Made by a program: the position numbers and the translations under genes. From a virus (taxonomy: Duplodnaviria > Caudoviricetes), in the IMG/VR virus record IMGVR_UViG_3300027902_000011, positions 1 through 59,783 of that record: a stretch of 59,783 bases of DNA; one strand, given 5' to 3'. Under the pieces are notes generated by a model that saw only the letters and a program-made list of their open reading frames with translations, had not been told where the DNA came from and ran no database searches. Below are positions 18,307 to 42,433 of this stretch, in pieces. Each line of letters begins with the position of its first letter. The stretch's first letter is position 1.

Positions 18307-18313
18307 ATGAAGT

Positions 18314-18396
18314 TGGTGCACGTCGCAGGACTCGAACCCGCATTTTCAGATCCAGTTACGGATAGTCGTTTAGAAGACGACCTCGTCTAGACGTGC
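18314..18396 (-). tRNA. tRNA-Arg(UCU), D-arm absent, expanded variable region
   Basis: Perfect acceptor and anticodon stems; loop CTTCTAA; CCGTAACTGGATCTGAAAAT insert. Confidence 0.8.
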
Positions 18397-18879
18397 TTGT
18401 TTACAGTTATCGAAATGGTATCGGTGCATATTCGGGCCTCGTCCTTCTTTTAGACAAAAAGGACAAGTATACTTGATCAAGTTATGATGAGTTCCATCAT
18501 CAAGTCGTCTCTGAGCTGTCTTACGTTGAATCTCACCACCCAAGAAAGGGTGTATTTCTTCAACAACTTGTTTTCTATTGTTTTCTTTGCCCAAGAATGG
18601 ATGAGTTCCTTTAGCAACCCGCTTATGGTTTTCCAGACTTGCTAACTCTGAAATGACTTGAGGAGACAATTTCATTCTTTGAGCTATTCTATAACAGGCG
18701 GCATAGTCGCCCTGCTCTAGATGGATCTCATAGTGATTCTGGATAGTCGTCGCCAACAGGTTCTCAATCCGGTTGTTGGTCTTGTCGCCGTCTTTGTGGT
18801 GAATCTCATAGGCACGACCATCCGCTTCCCGTGGGATGGGACCGTAGTGCTGCTCATAGATTTTTCTATAAATATGCAT
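18370..18879 (-). CDS. HNH homing endonuclease
   Basis: YEIHHKDGDKTNNRIENL and C-terminal CPFC..HFDNC; stop codon lies inside tRNA-Arg(UCU). Confidence 0.88.
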   Translation of the reverse strand: MHIYRKIYEQHYGPIPREADGRAYEIHHKDGDKTNNRIENLLATTIQNHYEIHLEQGDYAACYRIAQRMKLSPQVISELASLENHKRVAKGTHPFLGKENNRKQVVEEIHPFLGGEIQRKTAQRRLDDGTHHNLIKYTCPFCLKEGRGPNMHRYHFDNCKQARLDEVVF

Positions 18880-18941
18880 GCTGGCCTCCGTCAAGGTTAG
18901 AGCCGGTGGGTCTGATCACCGTGACCGGCGTTCTATTTATA
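18877..18941 (-). promoter_or_regulatory. Late promoter plus conserved endonuclease leader, copy 3
   Basis: TATAAATAGAAC GCCGGT CAC GGT GATCAG ACC C ACCGGC TCTAACCTTGACGGAGGCCAGC ATG. Confidence 0.8.
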
Positions 18942-18954
18942 GACCTAGATTTAT

Positions 18955-19030
18955 TGGAGCACCAGGCGAGACTCGAACTCGCATATAACAGCTTTGCAGG
19001 CTGCCCCGTGACCTCTCCGGGCACTGGCGC
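18955..19030 (-). tRNA. tRNA-Cys(GCA)
   Basis: Loop CTGCAAA, U73, CCA. Confidence 0.88.
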
Positions 19031-19035
19031 GTGAT

Positions 19036-19106
19036 TGGCTACGGACACCGGACTCGAACCGATCTCGTCAGCTTCAGAGGCTGACTTCCCGCCTTGGGTA
19101 TCCGCA
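19036..19106 (-). tRNA. tRNA-Gln(CUG), short D-arm
   Basis: U1-A72, G73, loop CTCTGAA. Confidence 0.87.
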
Positions 19107-19110
19107 GTGA

Positions 19111-19326
19111 TTACTCTACGTCGAAGAAGTGAAAGGCGCCGGCGCCGATCATCGCGATCGCGCCGCCGTGCGGCCACTGGTACAGGCGGTTCGTGACCAT
19201 CCCGTCCGCGTCTGACCATGCCTCCAGAGACTCGTGCTCGTCGCGAGTGATCGAGCGACGACCGTAGACCATCTCCATCGTCATCTCGTGGGAGGCGCGC
19301 TGCTCCTCGGGTCCCATCTCAGCCAT
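19111..19326 (-). CDS. Small hypothetical protein within the tRNA array
   Basis: AGGAG RBS, GC3-rich codons. Confidence 0.55.
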   Translation of the reverse strand: MAEMGPEEQRASHEMTMEMVYGRRSITRDEHESLEAWSDADGMVTNRLYQWPHGGAIAMIGAGAFHFFDVE

Positions 19327-19339
19327 CTTCTTCTCCTGT

Positions 19340-19415
19340 TGGTCTCCGCACGGTGTTCTGCCCACCGACCTCCTGCTTCCAAGGCAGGTACTCTTCTAGC
19401 ACGAGCTTTGCAGAG
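19340..19415 (-). tRNA. tRNA-Pro(UGG), non-canonical D and T loops
   Basis: C1-G72, A73, loop CTTGGAA; T-loop GGCAGAA. Confidence 0.82.
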
Positions 19416-19420
19416 TTGAA

Positions 19421-19479
19421 TGGCACCCCGGAACTTTTGTGCAGCTGAGCCATCCTACGATGACTTACTTAGCCGGGGT
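19421..19479 (-). ncRNA. 59-nt CCA-terminated tRNA-like mini RNA
   Basis: 7-bp ACCCCGG/CCGGGGT stem plus G-CCA; internal 7-bp hairpin with GTAG tetraloop. Confidence 0.6.
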
Positions 19480-19488
19480 TGTTTCGAA

Positions 19489-19564
19489 TGGAGGTTCCAC
19501 CCCGACTCGAACGGGGAACTCGACCTTCGCAGGGTCGTGATTTATCCAGTTAAACTATGGAACC
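19489..19564 (-). tRNA. tRNA-Arg(GCG)
   Basis: Canonical cloverleaf, D-loop AACTGGATA, loop CTGCGAA. Confidence 0.88.
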
Positions 19565-19569
19565 GTGAT

Positions 19570-19644
19570 TGGCAGGGCCTACGGGAATCGAACCCGTCTT
19601 GCTCGGTTGAGAACCGAGTTTCCTAGCCGATAGAAGAAGGCCCC
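19570..19644 (-). tRNA. tRNA-Glu(CUC)
   Basis: Loop TTCTCAA, G73, CCA. Confidence 0.9.
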
Positions 19645-19649
19645 TTGAT

Positions 19650-19726
19650 TGGCTCCAGCGGCTGGTTCCGACCCAGCATCGACATGAGTTAACAGCTCAC
19701 CGTCCTTACCATTTGACTACGCTGGA
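19650..19726 (-). tRNA. tRNA-Asn(GUU)
   Basis: U1-A72, G73, loop CTGTTAA; T-loop GTCGGAA. Confidence 0.85.
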
Positions 19727-19734
19727 ATGAAAGT

Positions 19735-19806
19735 TGGTGGAGTAATCGGGTACCGCCCCCGACGCGACAATCTTGCAAGGATCGTCTGCACCCTTGTGCC
19801 TACCCC
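19735..19806 (-). tRNA. tRNA-Ala(UGC), reduced D-arm
   Basis: G3.U70, A73, loop CTTGCAA; T-loop GGCGGTA. Confidence 0.85.
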
Positions 19807-19811
19807 GTTGT

Positions 19812-19886
19812 TGGTCCCCTAGAACGGAATCGAACCGCTGACGCACTCCTCTTCAGGGAGCCGCTCTACCACTGAGCTACACGGGG
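19812..19886 (-). tRNA. tRNA-Phe(GAA)
   Basis: Canonical D and T arms, loop CTGAAGA. Confidence 0.87.
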
Positions 19887-19892
19887 TTGTGT

Positions 19893-19966
19893 TGGCGCGG
19901 AATGTGGGAGTCGAACCCACGCTGCGAGTGTGGCACACTCGTCGACTGCCGTAATCTTTATTCCGC
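19893..19966 (-). tRNA. tRNA-Gly(GCC)
   Basis: GCGGAAT acceptor, loop GTGCCAC (G32-C38 can pair), CCA. Confidence 0.82.
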
Positions 19967-20395
19967 TTTGATCTTGTTTTTTCCGCAATATGTCGGTGTC
20001 TGTGCATGACAGTTAGGACACAATATGCGTAAATTTTTTAACTTATGATTTTTTGAATTACCGTCAACGTGATCAAGGTGCATTGACAGCGGCTTCTTAT
20101 TCCATTCTGTTATCCCACATTCTTCACACTTATTACTTTTGACGCCTTCCTTAAGAAGTCTTCTTTTAAGATGTGGAGTAGGATACTGAGGATGCTGGCC
20201 ATCGAGAATTTCATCTAAAGCAATGGGTTTCTGATATCCGCCATTTACGAAGGTCAAGCCGAGTTTTTGTGCTCGTCTAAAGATAGTTATATCGGGAACC
20301 AAGAATTTAGCAGCCAGACGCCCAAGTGTGGGTTCTTTATTGTAGGCGCTAATGAGTTCTTGATCAGTAAATCTGTCTTTGTGTTTCTGCTGCAT
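19958..20395 (-). CDS. HNH endonuclease
   Basis: CEEC..LDHVDGNSKNH..NLRILCPNCH; stop overlaps the tRNA-Gly 5' end. Confidence 0.9.
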   Translation of the reverse strand: MQQKHKDRFTDQELISAYNKEPTLGRLAAKFLVPDITIFRRAQKLGLTFVNGGYQKPIALDEILDGQHPQYPTPHLKRRLLKEGVKSNKCEECGITEWNKKPLSMHLDHVDGNSKNHKLKNLRILCPNCHAQTPTYCGKNKIKAE

Positions 20396-20456
20396 ATTCT
20401 ATATATACAATCAGTTTTGAAAACAGACTTTAACATGGGATCAAATTTTACGAGAA

Positions 20457-20540
20457 TGGTCCGCTACCTAGGAATCGAACCTAGCAGGCTATAAGCGCAG
20501 CTTTTACAGAGCCGCTCAGTCCCCAGACTTGCCGTAACGG
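20457..20540 (-). tRNA. tRNA-Tyr(GUA) with C1-G72 and a variable arm
   Basis: CCGTTAC/GTAGCGG-A-CCA; loop CTGTAAA. Confidence 0.85.
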
Positions 20541-20546
20541 TTGAGT

Positions 20547-20620
20547 TGGTTGCGCAGCTACGAGTTACACGTAGGTCCTAAGTTTATGAGACTTAGATGG
20601 GGTTCCTCCACTACCGCGCC
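20547..20620 (-). tRNA. tRNA with CAU anticodon and G1.A72 mismatch (initiator-like Met?)
   Basis: Loop CTCATAA; T-loop TGTAACT; lacks the three G-C pairs of tRNA-fMet. Confidence 0.72.
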
Positions 20621-20628
20621 GTAAGAAT

Positions 20629-20751
20629 TGGTTGGCGAGTTGCACGCCCACGGTTTTACATCCGAACTCATGCTATTAGATTTATGCGAGCAGTAATAGG
20701 AATGAATACCTATCTCTTGGGCCGCTGGTCGCGCCGGCCCGACTGTTGCTC
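20629..20751 (-). ncRNA. Candidate multi-hairpin ncRNA ending in a T-arm-like hairpin and CCA
   Basis: Follows overlapping TTGACA and TATAAATA promoters; several stems; 3' GGCG-TGCAACT-CGCC-AA-CCA. Confidence 0.5.
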
Positions 20752-20788
20752 TATTTATATCACCTCGACGATAAGTTGTCAAGGGAAT

Positions 20789-20877
20789 TGGCGGAGGGCC
20801 CGAGAATCGAACTCGATACCGTCTGGTACGTCCTGTTTTCGAGGCAGGCGCGAGGGGCCACCCCGCTTGTACCCTCC
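20789..20877 (-). tRNA. tRNA-Ser(CGA)
   Basis: Long variable arm, G73, loop CTCGAAA. Confidence 0.87.
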
Positions 20878-20966
20878 TGGCGGAAGACTGTGGTCTTGAT
20901 CCACAAGCACTCGCGCGCTCGTGACGCTTTCCAGGCGTACCTGCCCTCCCGAGCAGTTAGTCTTCC
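20878..20966 (-). tRNA. tRNA-Ser(GGA)
   Basis: Long variable arm, loop CTGGAAA; T-loop ATCAAGA. Confidence 0.85.
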
Positions 20967-20970
20967 TTAT

Positions 20971-21058
20971 TGGCGGATGCCAGGCTGTGTCGATCACCAT
21001 ACCGTGAGGTACCTGCCGGGTTCAAACCGGAGACGGGAGCCGTCCCGCGTTGGCATCC
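20971..21058 (-). tRNA. tRNA-Ser(UGA)
   Basis: Long variable arm, loop TTTGAAC; imperfect T-stem. Confidence 0.8.
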
Positions 21059-21063
21059 TTGAA

Positions 21064-21147
21064 TGGAGGTCCCAGCAGGATTCGAACCCGCGTTTTCAGC
21101 TCCAGCTACGGTTTACGACGTTCGAAGCGTCGTTCGGCTATGGGACC
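21064..21147 (-). tRNA. tRNA-Arg(UCG), D-arm absent, expanded variable region
   Basis: Perfect acceptor and anticodon stems; loop CTTCGAA; CCGTAGCTGGAGCTGAAAAC insert. Confidence 0.8.
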
Positions 21148-21148
21148 G

Positions 21149-21517
21149 TTATTGCTCGCCGTCTCGCTTGGAGCGGCTGTGGTAGAACTTAGACATCGTG
21201 ACCTTCTGGATCAGACGGTCGTCCTTGAGGATCGAGGGACCCTTCAGCGACTTGCCGTCGATCGCCATGAACGTCGCCTCCAGCAGGTGGTCGAGGTCGG
21301 GCGAAGACGGATTGACGTAGAGGACCTCTAGGTCTATCGGATAGTCGATCGGCAGGTCTGTCTGTGCAGAGATGGATCGACGAGCTGAGTCGAGTATGTC
21401 CTCGCGGTACTGCTGAAGCGCCCGCCGGTGCATCCGCTTGTGCGGAGCGTGGTGCAGGTTGAGCTTGAGTACCGGCGGGAACGCGCTGTCGTCCAGCCTT
21501 ACGAAGTAGCCTCTCAT
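21149..21517 (-). CDS. RusA-like resolvase family protein
   Basis: PDLDHLLEATFMAIDG..ILKDDRLI matches the RusA acidic motif spacing, with substitutions. Confidence 0.6.
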   Translation of the reverse strand: MRGYFVRLDDSAFPPVLKLNLHHAPHKRMHRRALQQYREDILDSARRSISAQTDLPIDYPIDLEVLYVNPSSPDLDHLLEATFMAIDGKSLKGPSILKDDRLIQKVTMSKFYHSRSKRDGEQ

Positions 21518-21536
21518 AACGTCCTCATAGTGTGAT

Positions 21537-21626
21537 TGGTCCGCCGTATAGGTAACGATCCTATCCGAGAAGGCTTATCTGGCCCAACTGCTTATAAGAC
21601 AGTCCTGCTCACCTGAGCTACAGCGG
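21537..21626 (-). tRNA. tRNA-Ile(UAU)-like with long variable region
   Basis: CCGCTGT/ACGGCGG-A-CCA; loop CTTATAA; T-loop ATCGTTA. Confidence 0.7.
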
Positions 21627-21631
21627 TTTAT

Positions 21632-21707
21632 TGGTCAGGGTGCGGTGTTCTGCCCACCGTCCACTTCCTTCCGAGGGAAGTAATCTTCTAACACGATATT
21701 CACCCTG
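21632..21707 (-). tRNA. tRNA-Pro(CGG), non-canonical D and T loops
   Basis: C1-G72, A73, loop CTCGGAA; T-loop GGCAGAA. Confidence 0.82.
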
Positions 21708-21712
21708 TCGAT

Positions 21713-21787
21713 TGGCGCTTCGTAGGGGAGTTGAACCCCTCTCAGCCGGTTGACAACCGGACCGCCACACCCGCAGCGTCACGAAGC
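21713..21787 (-). tRNA. tRNA-Asp(GUC)
   Basis: Loop TTGTCAA, G73, CCA. Confidence 0.87.
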
Positions 21788-21793
21788 TTGTAT

Positions 21794-21876
21794 TGGTGTC
21801 CGACGTGGGACTCGAACCCACAAAAACCCGGCTTCTCAGGCCGTCAGGTGTGCCATTTTCCATAGGTCAGTCGGAC
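21794..21876 (-). tRNA. tRNA-Leu(GAG), short variable loop, enlarged D region
   Basis: Loop CTGAGAA, A73, canonical T-arm. Confidence 0.8.
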
Positions 21877-21881
21877 GTTTT

Positions 21882-21962
21882 TGGTGTGCCAGGTGGGGAT
21901 CGAACCCACATTTTCAACCTATTACCTTACTCGAGATTAAGAGTCACGGAGGTTACTGGCGC
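21882..21962 (-). tRNA. tRNA-Lys(CUU), D-arm absent, expanded variable region
   Basis: Loop CTCTTAA; insert ending GGTTGAAAAT; canonical T-arm; CCA. Confidence 0.72.
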
Positions 21963-22530
21963 GTTGTCTTGTTTTTGCTAAAGTTGTTCGTATTTTTTGC
22001 TTTGTTTCTTCGGAGCGCGGTTTACCGAACATTGGATTATTTTTGCCGGCAATCGCAGGTCTTGGACCTTTTAACCGTTCAATCGTCTCCGGTTTGTGTT
22101 TTTTACCAGTCCAACTTTTGTTACCCAGTCTCTTTTTACGTTGTGCTTCTGAATTGTGCAACTTTTCAGAATTTTTCTGAATCCACAGTTTTACTTGTTG
22201 TTTGTGGAACTCAGACTGTTTTTTGCCTTTAAACCCTGGTGATAAATTGCTGTTGATGTAGCCCCAACCGCCTTTGCCACCTGGGCACAAGTTGTAATTG
22301 GTCTCGCGATCTGGAACTACCATGATCCGCTCAGCGAGATTGATGTCGCCTTCGTTGTTTGCCTCGATCAAGATCTCAGTCTTGAAGTTCTCGATGCCGT
22401 ACTTCTTGATAGACCGCTTAAGCAACTTACCAGACCCCATGTAGCCGTCGTTGACGTCTCGAGTCTTGTGTTTGCCGATGTAGTACTTGCCGTTGACTAG
22501 ACAAGTGGTTTTGTAGATCACGTAGTGCAT
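21937..22530 (-). CDS. GIY-YIG (Seg-like) homing endonuclease
   Basis: VIYKTTCLVNGKYYIGKH..YMGSG..YNL plus NUMOD3; stop lies in the tRNA-Lys anticodon loop. Confidence 0.9.
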   Translation of the reverse strand: MHYVIYKTTCLVNGKYYIGKHKTRDVNDGYMGSGKLLKRSIKKYGIENFKTEILIEANNEGDINLAERIMVVPDRETNYNLCPGGKGGWGYINSNLSPGFKGKKQSEFHKQQVKLWIQKNSEKLHNSEAQRKKRLGNKSWTGKKHKPETIERLKGPRPAIAGKNNPMFGKPRSEETKQKIRTTLAKTRQRASNLRDS

Positions 22531-22537
22531 TTAGTTG

Positions 22538-22583
22538 CCTCCTAGCAGAGGATAGCGGTCAAGCTATTTATCGTGCTAGGAGG
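22538..22583 (-). promoter_or_regulatory. RBS-sequestering hairpin enclosing a late promoter
   Basis: CCTCCTAGCA..ATAAATA..TGCTAGGAGG upstream of the endonuclease ATG. Confidence 0.75.
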
Positions 22584-22589
22584 TCTATG

Positions 22590-22663
22590 TAGACCAGGTG
22601 GGGTACGATCCCACATAAATCCGATTAAAAGTCGGAGCCGTAGCCAATTCCGGTCACTGGTCC
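22590..22663 (-). tRNA. tRNA-Lys(UUU), CCA not encoded
   Basis: Loop CTTTTAA; 3' end runs directly into the endonuclease leader. Confidence 0.82.
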
Positions 22664-22729
22664 ATGAGGCTAATCCAAGTCCCGCTGACTTTGATCGGGT
22701 GAAGAGCATCTGCTCAACTTGAACGGTGT

Positions 22730-22803
22730 TGGTACGCGTGGTAGGTACTGCCCCTACTTGCAAACGGTTATCGGCCGCTTCCTTCGCTTCTGAGATCACG
22801 CGT
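22730..22803 (-). tRNA. tRNA-Ile(GAU) with C33 and T-loop GGCAGTA
   Basis: Loop CCGATAA; ACGCGTG/CACGCGT-A-CCA. Confidence 0.8.
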
Positions 22804-22807
22804 GTGT

Positions 22808-22882
22808 TGGTGCGTCTTGTAGGAGTCGGACCTACTGCTTCCACCATGTCGGGGTGGCACTCTACCGATGAGTTAAAGACGC
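22808..22882 (-). tRNA. tRNA-Val(GAC) with C33
   Basis: Loop CCGACAT, A73, CCA. Confidence 0.85.
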
Positions 22883-22888
22883 TTGAAT

Positions 22889-22962
22889 TGGTAGTCCCTG
22901 ACGGAATCGAACCATCGTGGCCGCCATGTAAGAGCGGTGTTCTCCCATTGAACTAAGGGACC
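22889..22962 (-). tRNA. tRNA-Val(UAC)
   Basis: Loop CTTACAT, canonical arms. Confidence 0.9.
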
Positions 22963-22968
22963 GTGAAG

Positions 22969-23254
22969 TTAAAGCACGAAACTAATAAGCCGGATTCTGT
23001 ATAAGATGATCATCTGACTTGATCTACGGTTGCCCGCAGATTCTTTGCCACAACCCGGAACTCAACGGCTGATACTATCCTCGTTCCTGTTTGTGTCGCT
23101 CCCGATAGAGAATGGCACGTTTCACCCGAACTTAATCGGCTCGTTTCTGTTCCTCTAATCCTCAGGTTACCCTGGATGGTTGTTAACCACTATCGTGTAT
23201 CTTGGAGTCCGGACTTTCCTCCCCGTAGGGCGATCATCTGGTTTCGTGCTTTAA
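22969..23254 (-). ncRNA. rnpB: RNase P RNA (compact bacterial A-type)
   Basis: 5' GAGGAAAGTCCGG and 3' ACAGAATCCGGCTTAT P4 signatures; 14-bp terminal P1; ACAGAAA and GTGAAAC S-domain motifs; GCAA-capped P18. Confidence 0.93.
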
Positions 23255-23657
23255 TAGATTCAGATATTTTTTTTCGATGTTCAGGGGTTAATGCTTCTTT
23301 CTTCTTTTTGTTGTGTTTCCGTTTTCGTAAACTTTCTAAATTTTTAGGACTTAGAGAACCACCATATTTTTTAGATAATTTAAGCATGACTTCTGAAAGT
23401 TTTCTTTTATGTTCTAAACTTTTAGGAATATTTTTATTGGCTCGACCTGCATTCTTTTGTATCTCATAGATCAATTCTTGTTTAGTTATCATTCCACTAA
23501 GAGATAACCATGCACTTTTATCTTGCCATTCTCCCAATTCTTCATATCTAATTCTATGAAGGAAGGCATGTAATGTCACATTGCAACGTAACAGATTTCG
23601 CGGAGTATTAGTTCCGCCAGCATGTTCTGGTATTATATGGTGCATGTGCCAAAGCAT
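23190..23657 (-). CDS. HNH-like homing endonuclease
   Basis: HHIIPEHAGGTN..NL..HAFLH motif; the last ~21 codons overlap the RNase P RNA 5' end. Confidence 0.82.
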   Translation of the reverse strand: MLWHMHHIIPEHAGGTNTPRNLLRCNVTLHAFLHRIRYEELGEWQDKSAWLSLSGMITKQELIYEIQKNAGRANKNIPKSLEHKRKLSEVMLKLSKKYGGSLSPKNLESLRKRKHNKKKKEALTPEHRKKISESIKARNQMIALRGGKSGLQDTR

Positions 23658-23660
23658 AAT

Positions 23661-23798
23661 TTATTTATCCTTAGGTATTTCATTTGCACAACTAAATGGT
23701 TGATCTTGGCAGAGGATGATACGATGATCCACATAATGGACATCTTGGCGCTTCAGCTTGATCCTCTTGAGTCCCTGGTCACATAGAGTGCAGGCCAT
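23661..23798 (-). CDS. Small Cys-rich hypothetical protein
   Basis: AAGGA RBS; MACTLCDQG.. Confidence 0.45.
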   Translation of the reverse strand: MACTLCDQGLKRIKLKRQDVHYVDHRIILCQDQPFSCANEIPKDK

Positions 23799-23810
23799 GA
23801 TATTTCCTTT

Positions 23811-23887
23811 TGGTGTCCAAGGTGGGATTCGAACCCACAGCATCCTACGTTTTAAGCGCGGGTGGTCTGCCAGTTGCCTACTCGGAC
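23811..23887 (-). tRNA. tRNA-Leu(UAA), short variable loop
   Basis: Loop CTTAAAA, A73, CCA. Confidence 0.85.
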
Positions 23888-23892
23888 TTGAT

Positions 23893-23968
23893 TGGTACCC
23901 CAGCCGGGAGTCGGACCCGGACTCAACTGCTTTTGAGGCAGTCCGCTTTGCCCTTTGCGTACTGGGGT
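23893..23968 (-). tRNA. tRNA-Leu(CAA), short variable loop
   Basis: Loop CTCAAAA, A73, CCA. Confidence 0.85.
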
Positions 23969-23971
23969 GAT

Positions 23972-24049
23972 TGGTGTTCCGAGTGAGATTCGAACTCACA
24001 CTGTACGGCTTCTGAGACCGTTGTCTGCTGCCAGTTGGACTACCGGAAC
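23972..24049 (-). tRNA. tRNA-Leu(CAG), short variable loop
   Basis: Loop CTCAGAA, A73, CCA. Confidence 0.87.
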
Positions 24050-24143
24050 TTGAATTTCGTCCCTGTTTTTAATGAGGTGCCGGGAACCTCAACCGGTAAG
24101 CACAAGAGCAGATCTAGAAACCGCTCAATAGTAATCCGGCAAT

Positions 24144-24220
24144 TGGTGCGAGCCGGGGGAGTTGAACCCCCAACCACATGGTTCTAAACCATGCCGCTTT
24201 GCCTGTTTGCGTAGGCTCGC
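24144..24220 (-). tRNA. tRNA-Leu(UAG), short variable loop
   Basis: Loop TTTAGAA, A73, CCA. Confidence 0.87.
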
Positions 24221-36631: not shown

Positions 36632-37085
36632 AGATGTCTTTTTTATGGTCTTCCTTAGAACCCTTTTTAGTAACACGAAAAAGATATTTCAGGGCGGTAT
36701 CTCGGCATGAAGTAAATGCAGAACCTAAGGCTTTCCACATGTCGAACGCCTCGATGTCGTCAGTCGCCTTGTAGTGCTCGCCGTACGTCTTAGCGACGTA
36801 CTCCAGGAGCTCGGAGACGATCTCTGGCTCGTCGTACTTGAACTTGGTCTCGTTCGTCTTCGCTGTCATCTTGAAGCCGTTTGAGAACGTCCAGCTAGTG
36901 TTCGCGAACGGCGACGAAGAGATATAGCCAATGGGCGACGTAGTCTTGATCTCGTCCTCTCGCGGATCGAGCGGGAACGGACAGTCGTCGATGCCGCAGT
37001 CGGGCAACTTGTCGCCGCGCCTGGAGCAGAGGAAGCACGACTCCCTCCACGGGTACAGCTTGTCGGGTCCTGTAGTGTCGGTCAT
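36546..37085 (-). CDS. DUF3310-like (putative nucleotide kinase) protein
   Basis: TYGEHY, IEAFD, ALKYLFR..KKG, DIFKAIHY motifs. Confidence 0.7.
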   Translation of the reverse strand: MTDTTGPDKLYPWRESCFLCSRRGDKLPDCGIDDCPFPLDPREDEIKTTSPIGYISSSPFANTSWTFSNGFKMTAKTNETKFKYDEPEIVSELLEYVAKTYGEHYKATDDIEAFDMWKALGSAFTSCRDTALKYLFRVTKKGSKEDHKKDIFKAIHYCILMLHILRREDVSHDAQRDQG

Positions 37086-38284
37086 GCGAACGCTGCCTCT
37101 ACCGAGACCATAGACGTCGGAGAGTCGTCCCTCGTCTCGTGCTTCTGTTGGTGGTTGGACTGGAACAGGTAGTCCGTCTTGACCCAGGGACGCTCGTCCT
37201 CGAGAGCTGCGACCACCTCCGATGCCATGTCGGCAGCGGTGTCGACTGGCACGTTCTGACAGACGTGGTTGAGCTGGCGCTTCGGATCGAGGAGCTCGAA
37301 GTCTTGCGGGAGTCCCATGATCGTCATGCACTCTCGATAGTTCAGGAAGCGGTCCTTGGTCGGATGCGCGATGTTGATCTGGAGGTGGCCGACGAACGCG
37401 CCGATATAGTCCTTGGGAATGATGATCGAGCGGTGCATGATGCCTCCGCCCTTTGCCAGCTTCTCAGTGACCCGACCGGTCCACGCCGCCTCGCGCTCGT
37501 ATCCCTTCTTGGTCAGCCACTCGCCGAGCTGCTCATAGGAGACACCGTTGTCTTCGATGATCTCCAGAACCTGAGTAGACTTCATGATCCCCTTTGAGAA
37601 CTCTCGGTGGGTCACGCCTCCAGCGACTTCTTCGAGTACGAAGCGATACAGGGCATCCTCTGACGGCTTCTTCTTCGTGGGCGTCTCGGTCTGGAAGTTG
37701 CTCTTGACGCCGAGGATCAGGTCCTCGATTCTCTGGTGGTCGCGTCGGAAGTAGTTCAAGATCGGCGCCTTGTCGCCCTTCCAGAAGAAATAGAACGAGC
37801 GCTCGCGGATCTGAGGGACACCGTGGAACAGCGACTTGGTACGGTACACCGACATGGTGTACCCGTACTTCTTACCGACGGCACGGATGCGCTCGCGCAC
37901 CGGCTCGCCCATAGCACTTGCTAAAGCAGGAGCATTTTCACCCCAATAAACGTCTGGTTTCATTTCACCAAGTACATATTCTGCACAAGTTACAAGCCAT
38001 TCATTCAACGGATTATTTGCACCCGCAGTTTTGGAGAGCATGCTAAGACCTGCGCAAGGGCAGACAGACGACACCACGTCGATCTTTCCTCGCGGTCGTT
38101 TATCACCTTTATCAACAACAATATAGGGAATAACCTTTCCCTGCTGTTTATAATAATTCAACAAATGGGAATCATTTGCTGCAAATGGCGTATAAGAGAC
38201 CAAGTATTCTGGCGGTTTGCCGAATACGCGTTCTGAAGCAAGCGTCTCGCCGCCGATCAATGGGACTATGCTAACATGCTTCAT
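37082..38284 (-). CDS. DNA cytosine-C5 methyltransferase-like protein
   Basis: PCAGLS, ENAP, HGVPQIRER, RECMTIMGLP, QNVP motifs; motif I divergent. Confidence 0.8.
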   Translation of the reverse strand: MKHVSIVPLIGGETLASERVFGKPPEYLVSYTPFAANDSHLLNYYKQQGKVIPYIVVDKGDKRPRGKIDVVSSVCPCAGLSMLSKTAGANNPLNEWLVTCAEYVLGEMKPDVYWGENAPALASAMGEPVRERIRAVGKKYGYTMSVYRTKSLFHGVPQIRERSFYFFWKGDKAPILNYFRRDHQRIEDLILGVKSNFQTETPTKKKPSEDALYRFVLEEVAGGVTHREFSKGIMKSTQVLEIIEDNGVSYEQLGEWLTKKGYEREAAWTGRVTEKLAKGGGIMHRSIIIPKDYIGAFVGHLQINIAHPTKDRFLNYRECMTIMGLPQDFELLDPKRQLNHVCQNVPVDTAADMASEVVAALEDERPWVKTDYLFQSNHQQKHETRDDSPTSMVSVEAAFA

Positions 38285-38911: not shown

Positions 38912-39751
38912 TTAGGTGAAGAACTCCTCGAGCGTTCTTTCTGGAACTGCTTGAGAAGCATTCCAGCATTTTTTCCATGCGATCTCAGCAGCCACCTTGG
39001 TCTGGCCTCCCCACTTACCGATGCCCTCCTTAGTGATCTTGTCGTACAGCTTCACGAACTGGGGAAACTTGGCCTGCAGCGCCCTCATGGACTCGTTGTG
39101 CGTGTCGATAGTCCGAGACAGGGTCATGCCCCCGACAGACTGCTGCGTCGGCATCGGCCTCACGCGGTAGCGTAGGGAGATGCGGTTCTGGTACCCCATC
39201 GACAACAGCTGGAGGGTTATGTTGAAGTCTTCGGCGTGGGGAACGTCGTGCCAGCTCAACTTGTCGTGAGGGAACGTCTTCGCGTTGTAGAAGTGCGCGC
39301 CGTTCTGACGAAAGTTCTGGTGGAACATCTTCTCCAGGGGAGGGTTCCAGCATATCTCGAGACCACAGGTGACGAAGTCGTCCAGCCACTCCGACATCAG
39401 GTCGAACGCGGCGTCGTAGTCTGGGTCCTTGAACTTTGTGTTCCAGAGGGGAAACTTGTCTTTTTCTGTTGCTAATCTCGTATATGCAAAGTTATACAGA
39501 TCGTCGTCTAAAACACCATACTTGGTGACCTTATCCTTGATGGCCTGTTTCGCGATCCATTCACGAACATAAGAGATACCAGTACCTTGCACTGGGCATA
39601 ACAGGGTCGGATAACCCTTCTTGCCATGCATCTCAGCGTCCTGCTCGTCGACGACTAATACGGTTTTCTTCTTCCACTTCTCGGGAAGATTTTCAAACGT
39701 ATATTGGCGGGATCTGCGGTATGTGGGAATGTAAAGTTTCTCAAGGCTCAT
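38912..39751 (-). CDS. Putative DNA base glycosyltransferase (TAGT-like / hmC glycosyltransferase-like)
   Basis: YIPTYRR, REWI, LDDD, AEDF motifs; lies in the base-modification cluster. Confidence 0.7.
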   Translation of the reverse strand: MSLEKLYIPTYRRSRQYTFENLPEKWKKKTVLVVDEQDAEMHGKKGYPTLLCPVQGTGISYVREWIAKQAIKDKVTKYGVLDDDLYNFAYTRLATEKDKFPLWNTKFKDPDYDAAFDLMSEWLDDFVTCGLEICWNPPLEKMFHQNFRQNGAHFYNAKTFPHDKLSWHDVPHAEDFNITLQLLSMGYQNRISLRYRVRPMPTQQSVGGMTLSRTIDTHNESMRALQAKFPQFVKLYDKITKEGIGKWGGQTKVAAEIAWKKCWNASQAVPERTLEEFFT

Positions 39752-40609: not shown

Positions 40610-41161
40610 CTATCTCGTCCACGAGCTGAACTGTAGGCCGGCCTCTGTCAAGAACTTGGTAGTGTCCTTGAAGGAGTCTGCCCAACGGTTGTTGGGCTCC
40701 TCGAACTTCTTGGGGTAGCGCATGACGACGCGCTTGATGCCGACCTGGATGATGCCGAGGGCGCAGTGCGCGCACAACGGACAGCCCTCGATGTATATGG
40801 TAGATCCGTCTAGGGATACCCCAGTAAAAGAGGCGTTATAGATCGCATTCATCTCTGCATGGACGACCCTCTTGAGCTTGGTCTCACGATGCTCGTACAG
40901 TGCCTGGCTGTCGTCCATCTTGCGAGGAAAGCCGTTGTAGCCGGTCGAGAGGATCTGCCTCTTGTCGCCTACGACCACTGCACCGACCTTGGTCGACGGA
41001 TCCTTGGACCACTGCGCAATATCTTGAGCGAGGTCGAGGTAGCGTCCGTCCCACTTGTCTAGCCCAACGACGCCATAGACTGCATCTTGAACATAGACAA
41101 CCTTCCTTCTGCTGTAGCCGCCCTTGAAGCCTTCCTTGAAATCTTCCCAGATCTTACTCAT
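40610..41161 (-). CDS. dCMP deaminase
   Basis: SKDPSTKVGA, GYNG, HAEMNA, CAHC motifs. Confidence 0.92.
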   Translation of the reverse strand: MSKIWEDFKEGFKGGYSRRKVVYVQDAVYGVVGLDKWDGRYLDLAQDIAQWSKDPSTKVGAVVVGDKRQILSTGYNGFPRKMDDSQALYEHRETKLKRVVHAEMNAIYNASFTGVSLDGSTIYIEGCPLCAHCALGIIQVGIKRVVMRYPKKFEEPNNRWADSFKDTTKFLTEAGLQFSSWTR

Positions 41162-41897
41162 TGGTCGCCTTCTCAACCCACGGACTATCTGGGTACTTCT
41201 TCGCGTACAGTTCCTTCGTGACGTGGTGCGAGCCCGTGTTGCCGTACCAGTCAACCAGGTAGAAGTTGCGCTCGTAGACGTGCAGGGAGCCCGCGTTCCA
41301 GTGGATCTGTCCCTTCTGGGCGCCGATCTCGAGGCACACCAGGTCCTGTACGTAGTCTTGCCACGCAAGGTCGTTTCGGAAGCCGGCCCAGCAGTCGTTG
41401 GATCGCATCTGAACGACGACGTCTAGCTTGCCGTCTCGCAGTAGGTACTGGACAGCGTTGGTACACATGAAGTCGCTCATCCCGTCGAGGTTGTAGTCAT
41501 ACCACATCGAGGGACGGTTGTAGATCATGACTGCACGGCGCGAGTCCGGGTTCTTTCGCAGTTCTCCGACGGCGTGCTGGAACTGTGCGTAGTTGTCGGG
41601 GTGCCAGATGACCCAGCCGTAGTTAGAGTTGATGAAGCCGGTCTTAGACGCGCACTTGATCCAGATGGGCGGGATGCCGCCCGGAATGGCGTCGACCCTG
41701 AGTGACTGGCTCTTGTACCACGCGAGTTCTCGCTCGACGTAGCGCTTGTTCACGTCGCCGAAGATCGTCGGCTCGTCGGCGATGAAGCTGGCGCCGACGA
41801 TCTCGATCGTCTTGCACCCGGTCTTGTCGGTGATGAACTTCCTGTACTGAAGACGATCGGCGAACTCGTCTCTAATATCTATTACGCCTGGTTTCAT
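41154..41897 (-). CDS. Thymidylate synthase-fold enzyme, probably a dCMP hydroxymethylase (gp42-like)
   Basis: NSNYG, SRRA, DFMCT, MRSND..GFRND (Asp at the dCMP-specificity position), SLHVYER. Confidence 0.8.
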   Translation of the reverse strand: MKPGVIDIRDEFADRLQYRKFITDKTGCKTIEIVGASFIADEPTIFGDVNKRYVERELAWYKSQSLRVDAIPGGIPPIWIKCASKTGFINSNYGWVIWHPDNYAQFQHAVGELRKNPDSRRAVMIYNRPSMWYDYNLDGMSDFMCTNAVQYLLRDGKLDVVVQMRSNDCWAGFRNDLAWQDYVQDLVCLEIGAQKGQIHWNAGSLHVYERNFYLVDWYGNTGSHHVTKELYAKKYPDSPWVEKATNE

Positions 41898-42433
41898 TGT
41901 TTCTCTTCCATATTTTTGTATCTTGTTACCCAACCCTTTTGAGTAATTGCAGAACAGGAACCGTAACGTTCTATAATCGTTTTGGTTGCTTTGACCGTTT
42001 GTTCTGTTGTTCTTTTAGTACCTCTAGCATTTTTGTTGCCCAATTTAGCAATCCGCATTTTTTCTATAGAAGCAGCAGCATGCTTCTTTCTAAACATTGG
42101 GTTTTTATCTTTTCTTACATCGTGATGGTTTTTAGAGATATTTTGTTTGTGTTCTTCTGAGAATTTTGGGCGTTTATATCCTTGCACAGAACGTCCTAAT
42201 GGAAAGTGGCGCTTTAATATATTGTGAGCACAAGCATCTTCATGCCGACCAAAAAGTTTATACCTCAATTTGTGTACTAAAGTATGTTCCTTTGCAGTCA
42301 AAAACGTAATATTCTTTTTAACATATTCACCGCCTTCATATCCTGGGACTATACGATGTTGATGCAATCCAGACTCATAGAGTCTAAGACTGCCTTGAAG
42401 AATAAGACTATCATATATACGTTTATAGTTCAT
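41894..42433 (-). CDS. HNH-like homing endonuclease with NUMOD3
   Basis: HQHRIVPGYEGGEY..NI..LT..EH; paralog of 903..1514. Confidence 0.82.
   Translation of the reverse strand: MNYKRIYDSLILQGSLRLYESGLHQHRIVPGYEGGEYVKKNITFLTAKEHTLVHKLRYKLFGRHEDACAHNILKRHFPLGRSVQGYKRPKFSEEHKQNISKNHHDVRKDKNPMFRKKHAAASIEKMRIAKLGNKNARGTKRTTEQTVKATKTIIERYGSCSAITQKGWVTRYKNMEEKQ

What the first reader, a model, noticed from the sequence alone, without database searches (positions are those of the whole stretch)
22969..23254. Phage-encoded RNase P RNA inside the tRNA array
Seen: the minus strand reads TTAAAGCACGAAAC..GAGGAAAGTCCGG..ACAGAAAC..GTGAAACG..GGGTTG..ACAGAATCCGGCTTAT..GTTTCGTGCTTTAA. This gives both P4 signatures, a 14-bp P1, a minimal P3, a GGU in L15 and a GNRA-capped P18 in only ~285 nt; P13/P14 and P19 appear absent. 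Established: RNase P RNA is the catalytic subunit for tRNA 5' maturation and is normally cellular; T4 relies on the host enzyme. Inference: the phage supplies its own ribozyme and borrows host RnpA, since no rnpA is seen in this window.
Basis: partly seen in the sequence, partly recalled or inferred. Interest (0 to 1): 0.9.

Follow-up and report, generated by a model that had tools for sequence, protein, structure and literature searches.

The report
Phage-encoded RNase P ribozyme gene
A T4-like phage carries, inside its cluster of 26 tRNA genes, an intact copy of the RNA enzyme that trims tRNA precursors, a gene normally supplied only by the host cell, and similar but more reduced copies sit in the tRNA clusters of many other phages.

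Summary
Confirmed. Window 22970-23249 (-) matches Rfam RNaseP_bact_a end to end at 170.9 bits (gathering score 100, E 2e-53). With the 14-bp P1 it spans 22969-23254. A 5-bp P6 pseudoknot is also there.

The contig is a T4-superfamily virus record with phage genes on both sides. The RNA is co-oriented with 26 tRNAs and ends 6-7 nt before tRNA-Val.

One correction: the compaction is not a phage invention. Sole-copy cellular RNase P RNAs of Nitrosospira, Nitrosomonas, Methylophilaceae and others share the mini-P12, P13/P14-less design. The 3-bp P3 with a UACG loop also occurs next to EF-Tu and L33 genes.

The gene looks selected. Against its closest relative, a phage-like fragment, 31 of 71 helix pairs differ on both sides and none is broken.

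More diverged 230-280-nt RNase P-like RNAs lie in tRNA arrays of Stenotrophomonas phage DLP6 and dozens of viral contigs. No RnpA gene was found in five records.

Catalysis and use of host RnpA remain untested. Nine literature searches found no phage precedent.

The parts
22969..23254 (-). RNase P RNA gene, type A, compact form (286 nt with the 14-bp P1; covariance-model match 22970-23249)
   Evidence: RF00010 170.9 bits, E 2e-53, full length; fold z -3.14.
23209..23216 (-). P4 5' strand (CR I) with bulged U at 23213
   Evidence: Read. Pairs with 22987-22993. The 7 P4 pairs are 100% paired in 35 sequences, but the loci were picked by this motif.
22987..22993 (-). P4 3' strand (CR V, after ACAGAA at 23000-22995)
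   Evidence: In relative L345 one P4 pair is changed on both sides.
23221..23230 (-). Minimal P3: 3 bp closed by a UACG tetraloop
   Evidence: Same design with a compensatory middle pair in L345, and identical in L346.
23197..23201 (-). P6 pseudoknot, J5/7 strand
   Evidence: By eye: 5 bp with 23071-23075. Different but complementary strands at the same two places in L271, L199, L183 and L345.
23071..23075 (-). P6 pseudoknot, L17 strand
   Evidence: As above.
23103..23195 (-). Specificity domain P7-P12 with CR II and CR III. P12 is reduced to 4 bp (23126-23139). P13/P14 are absent.
   Evidence: alignment. Covariation of P7-P12.
23049..23095 (-). P15-P16-P17 with the L15 GGU motif (23053-23056)
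   Evidence: P15 97.1% and P16 95.4% of cells paired; the 2-bp P17 only 64.3%.
23022..23041 (-). P18, 8 bp with GNRA (GCAA) loop
   Evidence: All 8 pairs show changes on both sides.
22889..22962 (-). tRNA-Val(UAC), 6 nt after the end of P1. Its 5' cleavage would set the 3' end of the ribozyme.
   Evidence: spacer read.
17687..25214 (-). Array of 26 tRNA genes, all on the minus strand, that encloses the ribozyme gene
   Evidence: ARAGORN, 26. (Rfam, 20 above threshold).
23190..23657 (-). HNH homing-endonuclease-like ORF (155 aa) whose last codons read 60-65 nt into the ribozyme gene
   Evidence: ORF. (PF01844 HNH, E 2e-5, profile positions 14-33 only).
24184..24792 (-). GIY-YIG/NUMOD3 homing endonuclease in the array. 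Its 3' end overlaps tRNA-Leu(UAG).
   Evidence: (phrog_314, E 6.9e-41).
21937..22530 (-). Second GIY-YIG/NUMOD3 homing endonuclease in the array

Best explanation
This is a functional, phage-encoded catalytic RNA subunit of RNase P (an rnpB-like auxiliary gene). A T4-superfamily phage acquired it from a bacterial lineage whose own RNase P RNA is already compact. The closest named relatives are Nitrosomonadales-type Betaproteobacteria. Inferred steps follow. The RNA is transcribed with the minus-strand tRNA array. Its 3' end is released when RNase P cuts at +1 of the tRNA-Val gene 6 nt downstream. It folds into the standard type A core (P1-P5, P7-P12, P15-P18, P4 and P6 pseudoknots, GNRA loops L9 and L18). 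It binds the host's RnpA protein. It recognises pre-tRNAs through the T-loop site of the S-domain and through pairing of the L15 GGU motif with the encoded 3'-CCA, and it removes their 5' leaders. The benefit to the phage would be enough RNase P capacity to mature a burst of 26 phage tRNAs while host gene expression is being shut down. Shown: identity, intact architecture, phage location and recurrence in other phages. Inferred: transcription, processing, RnpA use, catalysis and benefit.
For: Identity: RF00010 170.9 bits against a gathering score of 100, full length.

Phage location: virus record. It carries gp23-like major head protein, gp43-like polymerase, helicases, SbcC-like nuclease, gp44-like clamp loader, UvsX-like RecA and T4 scaffold protein on both sides. 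gp23 is 68% identical to that of phage DLP6.

Array context: 26 co-oriented tRNAs. 0 of 7 cellular rnpB loci hold any tRNA in 5-8 kb.

Integrity: all helices are formed. A 5-bp P6 exists that the covariance model does not score. The structure has 97.6% of cells paired against 79.5% in shuffles and 31.6-38.0% when slid, and 59 of 74 pairs show changes on both sides, over 35 sequences.

Selection: against the closest relative L345 (193.9 bits, 280 nt, next to a PHROG-family ORF), 31 of 71 helix pairs differ on both sides and none is broken, including one P4 pair. P6 is rewritten complementarily (hand count).

Substrate fit: 9 of 10 tRNAs read encode 3'-CCA, and L15 carries GGU.

Recurrence: a second above-threshold phage copy, L183, scores 136.2 bits between tRNA-Asp and tRNA-Ser in a 27-tRNA array beside tail and baseplate genes. 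The same synteny holds in L323/L330, L335, L347, L344, L356 and L362. Sub-threshold full-length matches occur in cultured phage DLP6 (54.7 bits) and 14 viral records (G004; 9; 4). In 12 of 18 further loci the RNA lies within 100 nt of a same-strand tRNA.

No rnpA: 0 of 5 records.
Against: No activity, expression or end-mapping data exist. The compensatory changes could have arisen in cellular ancestors before two separate captures, so they do not prove selection inside phages. L345 is a 1.4-kb fragment whose phage origin rests on one PHROG match; its ORF has no homologue in the window.

The window RNA scores closer to cellular RNAs (up to 176.8 bits) than to most phage copies (L183 99.5 bits). 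The phage copies are therefore not one clean lineage.

Close phage relatives lack it. Melnitz, Mosig, S-SKS1 and phiM12 have no match. Nor do 9 of 10 related IMG/VR records, including a 96%-complete one.

J5/15 reads GCGA where every other RNA I saw aligned, and the Rfam consensus, read GCAA. The effect of this change is unknown. The HNH ORF overlaps the 5' 60-65 nt. The promoter scan is not above chance (11 sites against 7.1 +/- 2.8). The window is about 33% of the genome, so a phage rnpA cannot be excluded.
Confidence: 0.65

Rival explanations
1. Structurally intact but selectively neutral passenger. A host rnpB copy was captured fairly recently along with other host-like RNA genes, is not needed by the phage, and has simply not yet decayed.
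For: The architecture is the same as in cellular rnpB genes. Occurrence among related phages is patchy. The array is being churned by at least five homing-endonuclease-like ORFs.
Against: The best of 80 cellular loci scores 176.8 bits and the best of 151 order-level genomes 174.9 bits, against a self-score of 370.6. The RNA is therefore far from any sampled donor, yet no helix is broken and P6 is intact. A related lineage keeps its copy at a fixed place between tRNA-Asp and tRNA-Ser while the sequence diverges (76.6-100.5 bits). Phage genomes are under strong size constraint (general knowledge).
Confidence: 0.15
2. A modified RNase P RNA used for something other than bulk tRNA maturation. It might be a decoy that titrates host RnpA away from host RNase P, or an enzyme with shifted substrate preference for phage leaders or phage mRNAs.
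For: J5/15 has G where the consensus has A. By recollection this is the residue that contacts the base before the cleavage site. In 10 leaders read, that base is A (6) or C (4) and never U. Passages of PMC3001073 discuss a poxvirus RNase P-like RNA as a possible decoy. Passages of PMC11143913 note that RNase P cuts some phage RNAs and mRNAs.
Against: All conserved core regions, both pseudoknots and the CCA-binding GGU are retained. A decoy would not need them. With A before the cleavage site in 6 of 10 leaders, a simple G-C pairing rule does not hold.
Confidence: 0.12
3. Assembly chimera or host contamination: a bacterial rnpB was joined to phage DNA at conserved tRNA sequences.
For: The contig is a metagenome assembly. 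Some related records are labelled provirus by IMG/VR.
Against: The gene lies about 23 kb from the nearer end of the contig, with T4-like genes on both sides. It sits 6 nt from a tRNA and is overlapped by a homing-endonuclease ORF, whereas 0 of 7 cellular rnpB loci have a tRNA nearby. The same arrangement recurs in independent assemblies and in the cultured phage DLP6. No sampled bacterium has a near-identical RNA.
Confidence: 0.02

Closest known systems
Cellular type A RNase P RNA of the compact kind (Nitrosospira, Nitrosomonas, Methylophilaceae such as strain KB13, Thiobacillus, Gallionellaceae; record titles)
   Same: The architecture is the same: 4-bp P12 with the same loop, no P13/P14, P18 with a GNRA loop, GGU in L15 and a P6 pseudoknot. 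Lengths are 282-303 nt. They score 141.6-174.9 bits with the window-derived model. Each was the single match in the 5 genomes checked.
   Different: The cellular genes stand away from tRNA genes (0 of 7 loci) and have a longer P3 (12-28 nt more). The window copy lies in a phage tRNA array, has a 3-bp P3 and reads GCGA in J5/15.
Phage T4 tRNA cluster, matured by host RNase P
   Same: A T4-superfamily phage with a co-transcribed tRNA cluster whose precursors need RNase P (passages of PMC11143913).
   Different: T4 relies wholly on the host enzyme. This phage carries the RNA subunit itself.
Diverged or minimal RNase P RNAs of candidate-phyla-radiation bacteria (PMC8172020, passages read)
   Same: Loss of P13, P14, P16, P17, P18 or even P12, and scores below the Rfam threshold. 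The more reduced phage copies look the same: DLP6 has 49 nt in place of 140 S-domain model positions, and G028 has 40 nt in place of 154.
   Different: Those are the cells' only RNase P RNAs. The phage copies are extra copies in viral tRNA arrays.
Orthopoxvirus (camelpox) RNase P-like RNA (passage of PMC3001073)
   Same: A virus-encoded RNA likened to RNase P RNA.
   Different: That RNA shows only some structural similarity and had no pre-tRNA processing activity in vitro. The window RNA is a full-length member well above the Rfam threshold.
Other translation-related RNA genes of large phages (tRNA arrays, tmRNA)
   Same: Host-like RNA genes kept by phages. tmRNA genes lie beside two of the related arrays (L184, L162).
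   Different: My nine searches found no report of RNase P RNA in this repertoire.

Membership tests
Bacterial RNase P RNA, type A (Rfam RF00010) | Full-length covariance-model score above the curated gathering score | tested here: met
   170.9 bits against 100, model 1-367, E 2e-53 (repeated).
Bacterial RNase P RNA, type A (Rfam RF00010) | P4 pseudoknot formed by CR I and CR V with a bulged U | tested here: met
   7 pairs plus bulged U read. 100% paired in 35 sequences (the loci were chosen by this motif). One pair is compensated in L345.
Bacterial RNase P RNA, type A (Rfam RF00010) | S-domain T-loop recognition module (P9-P11 with CR II and CR III) | tested here: met
   Aligned at high posterior probability. 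The P7-P12 pairs covary.
Bacterial RNase P RNA, type A (Rfam RF00010) | Type A peripheral set: P6 pseudoknot, P15-P17 with GGU in L15, and P18 with a GNRA loop | tested here: met
   P6 is 5 bp by eye, with complementary rewrites in four relatives. P17 is only 2 bp and weakly supported (64.3% paired).
Bacterial RNase P RNA, type A (Rfam RF00010) | P13/P14 in the S-domain | tested here: not met
   43 model positions are replaced by 1 nt. Accepted cellular members lack them too (PMC8172020 passages), so this does not bar membership.
Bacterial RNase P RNA, type A (Rfam RF00010) | Cleaves pre-tRNA 5' leaders, alone at high Mg2+ or with RnpA | not testable with these tools
No RNA run was listed.
Phage-borne auxiliary gene (as opposed to host DNA) | Lies inside a virus genome between virus genes | tested here: met
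   The same placement is seen in cultured phage DLP6.
Self-sufficient phage RNase P holoenzyme | Phage also encodes the protein subunit RnpA (PF00825) | tested here: not met
   0 of 5 records (window, DLP6 complete, G004, G011, G041 complete) at E <= 0.01. The control matched in 10 of 14 genomes. The window is only about 33% complete.

The most novel reading that the evidence does not exclude
Many unrelated phages with large tRNA arrays carry their own RNase P ribozyme. The copies range from near-canonical (this window, L183, L345) to drastically reduced forms of about 230-270 nt. The reduced forms keep the catalytic domain but shrink the specificity domain to some 40-50 nt (DLP6, G028). At least one archaeal-type copy exists (L322). 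These would be a new class of viral auxiliary RNA genes and a natural series of minimal RNase P enzymes. They may be tuned to phage pre-tRNAs and able to work with host RnpA or without protein.
Probability: 0.45. Interest if true: 0.9.

Novelty: new variant of a known kind. Interest (0 to 1): 0.78.

Why it matters
RNase P RNA is treated as a cellular and organellar housekeeping gene, and the textbook phage case (T4) borrows the host enzyme. An intact copy embedded in a phage tRNA array would add the tRNA-maturing ribozyme to the translation genes that phages carry. The recurrence of such copies across phages suggests that 5' maturation can limit the use of phage tRNAs. The more reduced phage copies offer natural minimal designs for studying what RNase P needs in order to work. 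One carrier, Stenotrophomonas phage DLP6, is cultured, so the idea can be tested at the bench. For annotation, sub-threshold RF00010 matches next to phage tRNAs should not be dismissed, and such regions should not be read as host contamination or provirus ends.

Tried and rejected
- **Phage-specific minimisation (rejected).** Loss of P13/P14 and the short P12 occur in sole-copy cellular RNAs. The UACG-capped 3-bp P3 is identical in L346, which follows EF-Tu and L33 genes. L346's 3' P4 strand and P1 do not align, and the contig ends 113 nt later, so that copy may be interrupted.
- **One phage lineage of RNase P RNAs (not supported).** The single-sequence model R1 found 24 other matches in 91 sources. 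It missed DLP6 (L007), L151 (G004) and L107 (G028).
- **The 23 loci with the DLP6-type P4 pattern.** R1 matched 11 and RF00010 matched 7. 16 were matched by at least one model and 7 by neither (L102, L108, L111, L126, L133, L160, L165), which remain unclassified. In the alignment, the S-domain and P18 columns were gaps in 16-20 of 21 distinct sequences.
- **blastn of the window RNA against 50,697 phage records.** No match at E 1e-5 or at E 10. The DLP6 RNA matched only itself. The G011 RNA matched nothing.
- **Exact 26-mer of P3/P4.** 0 matches in viral contigs and 0 in metagenome contigs.
- **Sequencing runs.** None was listed and no RNA holder was listed.
- **Promoter and terminator scan.** Not above chance.
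- **Upstream ORFs of the window and DLP6.** Not related.
- **DLP6 Rfam match.** It appears only when flanks are given. It is lost in tight cut-outs. I take this as a filter effect.
- **Literature.** Nine searches found no report of a phage-encoded RNase P RNA. The DLP6 paper has 0 occurrences of 'RNase P'. Its supplements, including the tRNA table, could not be seen. Papers outside the held library may exist.
- **Unpublished genome.** The tally (137 of 151 genomes matched) includes the unpublished genome G124 (weak matches of 42.6 and 34.6 bits).

Full report
**Observation.** The Rfam scan of the whole window gives one RNaseP_bact_a match at 22970-23249 on the minus strand. It scores 170.9 bits against a gathering score of 100, with E 2e-53, and covers model positions 1-367. 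The own-genome search repeats it.

I mapped the alignment by hand onto the numbered sequence.
- P1 is 9 bp in the model and 14 bp with the flanking TTAAA/TTTAA, giving 22969-23254.
- P2 is 7 bp. P3 is 3 bp closed by UACG.
- P4 has 7 pairs and the bulged U.
- P5, P7, P8, P9 (GUAA loop) and P10/P11 are all formed.
- P12 is 4 bp. P13/P14 are missing (43 model positions replaced by 1 nt).
- P15 is 3 bp and P16 is 5 bp. L15 reads GGGUU. P17 is a weak 2 bp.
- P18 is 8 bp with a GCAA loop.

By eye I also found a 5-bp P6 pseudoknot between J5/7 (23201-23197) and the P17 loop (23075-23071). The covariance model does not score this element. An energy-only fold recovers most helices (z -3.14).

**Context.** The window is an IMG/VR virus record estimated at 33% complete.
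- It encodes a gp43-like DNA polymerase, DnaB-like and other helicases, an SbcC-like nuclease and a gp23-like major head protein.
- It also encodes a gp44-like clamp loader, a UvsX-like RecA, a T4 scaffold protein, a thymidylate-synthase-like enzyme and a TET-associated glycosyltransferase.
- The head protein is 68% identical to that of Stenotrophomonas phage DLP6 and 61-65% identical to those of Methylophilales phage Melnitz, Pelagibacter phage Mosig and cyanophage S-SKS1.
- ARAGORN finds 26 tRNA genes, all on the minus strand, from 17687 to 25214. The ribozyme gene lies among them, 6 nt upstream of tRNA-Val(UAC).
- The array is interrupted by GIY-YIG and HNH homing-endonuclease-like ORFs. 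One of them (23190-23657) reads 60-65 nt into the ribozyme gene.

**Cellular relatives.** I built a covariance model, R1, from the window RNA and the hand-mapped structure.
- R1 matched 79 of those 80 loci. The best was 176.8 bits, for a MAG labelled uncultured Alphaproteobacteria.
- Nitrosospira, strain KB13 and Nitrosomonas marina scored 171.5, 170.4 and 167.0 bits.
- The printed alignments show the same 4-bp P12 with the same loop, no P13/P14 and a GNRA-capped P18, in RNAs of 282-303 nt.
- In the 5 genomes checked, this was the only match.
- A sample of 151 genomes of the order around KB13 gave no score above 174.9 bits. The self-score is 370.6.
- None of 7 such cellular loci holds a tRNA gene.

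So the compact design is inherited from a cellular lineage and is not a phage invention. The window RNA is nonetheless far from every sampled cellular RNA.

**Closest relatives.** An S-domain motif shared by the window and L183 found 2 viral and 46 metagenome loci. R1 matched all 47 distinct loci.
- The best is L345 at 193.9 bits. It is exactly 280 nt, has the same UACG-capped 3-bp P3, and sits on a 1.4-kb fragment.
- The ORF just upstream of the L345 RNA belongs to phrog_15089 (E 5.7e-24).
- Reading by hand, 31 of 71 helix pairs differ on both sides between the window and L345, and none is broken. One of these is inside P4.
- P6 is rewritten complementarily.
- P6 is likewise complementary but different in L271, L199 and L183.
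- L346 (152.7 bits) has the identical mini-P3 but follows EF-Tu and ribosomal protein L33 genes. That is a cellular setting.

**Other phages.** RF00010 gives a full-length 54.7-bit match in the complete genome of cultured phage DLP6 at 105774-106022. The region is unannotated and lies between a hypothetical gene and tRNA-Arg(CCG) in its tRNA array. The catalytic-domain elements align there, but only 49 nt stand in for 140 S-domain positions.
- Further full-length matches of 45-85 bits were found in 14 viral records: G004, 9, and 4.
- One match lies above threshold: L183 at 136.2 bits.
- L183 lies between tRNA-Asp and tRNA-Ser in a 27-tRNA array on a contig with tail tube, baseplate and ligase genes. 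It lacks P12 and P18.
- The same order, tRNA-Glu, tRNA-Asp, the RNA, tRNA-Ser and tRNA-Ser, recurs in L323/L330, L335, L347, L344, L356 and L362. R1 scores there are 76.6-100.5 bits. This argues for long retention at one locus while the sequence diverges.
- tRNAs were present in 8 of 11 loci and in 18 of 18 loci. In 12 of those 18 the RNA is within 100 nt of a same-strand tRNA.
- Over the 21 distinct viral sequences aligned to R1, P1, P2, P3, P5, P15 and P16 show many changes on both sides. 94.2% of cells are paired against 59.5% in shuffles. The S-domain and P18 were mostly not alignable.
- One small contig carries an archaeal-type RNA (RF00373, 125.7 bits).

**Negatives.**
- Four cultured relatives have no match. 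Nor do 9 of 10 related IMG/VR records.
- blastn finds nothing like the window RNA among 50,697 phage records.
- PF00825 (RnpA) is absent from the window, DLP6, G004, G011 and G041.

**Function.** The core is complete and the tertiary-contact elements are kept. 9 of the 10 tRNAs I read encode the 3'-CCA that the L15 GGU motif binds. I therefore take the RNA to be an active RNase P subunit that is co-transcribed with the tRNAs, released at its 3' end by RNase P cleavage of the next tRNA, and assembled with host RnpA. These steps are inferred. No run holding the sequence was listed, and the promoter scan is uninformative.

One oddity is unexplained. J5/15 reads GCGA where the Rfam consensus and every other RNA whose alignment I saw read GCAA. 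By recollection that A contacts the base before the cleavage site. That base is A in 6 and C in 4 of the 10 leaders read.

**Literature.** Nine full-text searches found no phage-encoded RNase P RNA.
- Passages of PMC11143913 describe host RNase P processing T4 precursors.
- Passages of PMC8172020 describe diverged RNase P RNAs in candidate-phyla-radiation bacteria.
- The DLP6 paper does not mention RNase P.
- PMC3001073 mentions an inactive poxvirus RNase P-like RNA.
- Supplements were closed, and the library is incomplete.

**Limits.** The alignments from R1 are fitted to its structure, and the loci were picked by conserved motifs. The invariance of those motifs is therefore not evidence.

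Noticed in passing
L007 1501-1749 (+), which is KU682439.2 105774-106022: Cultured Stenotrophomonas phage DLP6 has an unannotated 249-nt RNase P-like RNA (RF00010 54.7 bits) directly before tRNA-Arg(CCG). Only about 49 nt stand in for the S-domain. The match is found only when flanking sequence is supplied.
   Followed up: partly
L322 11-244 (+) (G021, 5.5-kb viral contig): An RNase P RNA best matched by the archaeal model RF00373 (125.7 bits against a gathering score of 84) sits among tRNA-His and tRNA-Ser genes. This may be an archaeal virus with its own RNase P RNA.
   Followed up: no
L321 12-260 (-) (G028; near-identical in G067 and G080): An RNase P-like RNA in which 154 model positions between the P5 strands are replaced by 40 nt. 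No tRNA lies within 1.5 kb in these three loci.
   Followed up: no
window 23097 (RNA position 153, J5/15): The window reads GCGA where the Rfam consensus and all nine other aligned RNAs I saw read GCAA. The base before the cleavage site in 10 phage tRNA leaders is A (6) or C (4) and never U.
   Followed up: partly
window 22963-25220, tRNA leaders: 9 of the 10 leaders read end in TCAA, TCAC or ATC just before +1, and seven of these follow the previous tRNA's CCA. In L345, GAATCAC directly precedes the 5' end of the RNase P RNA itself.
   Followed up: no
window 24184-24220 and 23190-23254: Homing-endonuclease ORFs run into the downstream RNA gene before reaching a stop. The GIY-YIG ORF overlaps tRNA-Leu(UAG) by 37 nt, and the HNH ORF overlaps the RNase P RNA by 60-65 nt.
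   Followed up: no
window 24833-24904: tRNA-Trp starts directly after the CCA of tRNA-His. It is the only one of the 10 tRNAs read that does not encode 3'-CCA.
   Followed up: no
window 25729-26118 (-): A 129-aa ORF just upstream of the tRNA array has an S4 RNA-binding domain and resembles the C-terminal domain of tyrosyl-tRNA synthetase.
   Followed up: no
window 38912-39751 (-), 41154-41933 (-), 37082-38284 (-): A TET-associated glycosyltransferase, a thymidylate-synthase-like enzyme and a DNA methyltransferase suggest hypermodified phage DNA.
   Followed up: no
L125 1747-1821, L095 4321-4395, L355 8001-8074: tRNAs with anticodon CUA (amber suppressors, called tRNA-Pyl by ARAGORN) occur in three arrays that also hold RNase P-like RNAs. 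tmRNA genes lie in L184 and L162.
   Followed up: no
L346 880-1154 (+): A cellular-context RNase P RNA (after EF-Tu and L33 genes) has a P3 identical to the window's. Its alignment breaks down right after ACAGA of CR V. It may be interrupted by an insertion, or the contig may be misassembled.
   Followed up: partly
L331 701-1298 (+) and L355 3727-4097 (+): Two array-linked relatives are much longer, at 598 nt and 371 nt. The second has a 91-nt insertion in P12. The first may hold an intervening sequence.
   Followed up: no
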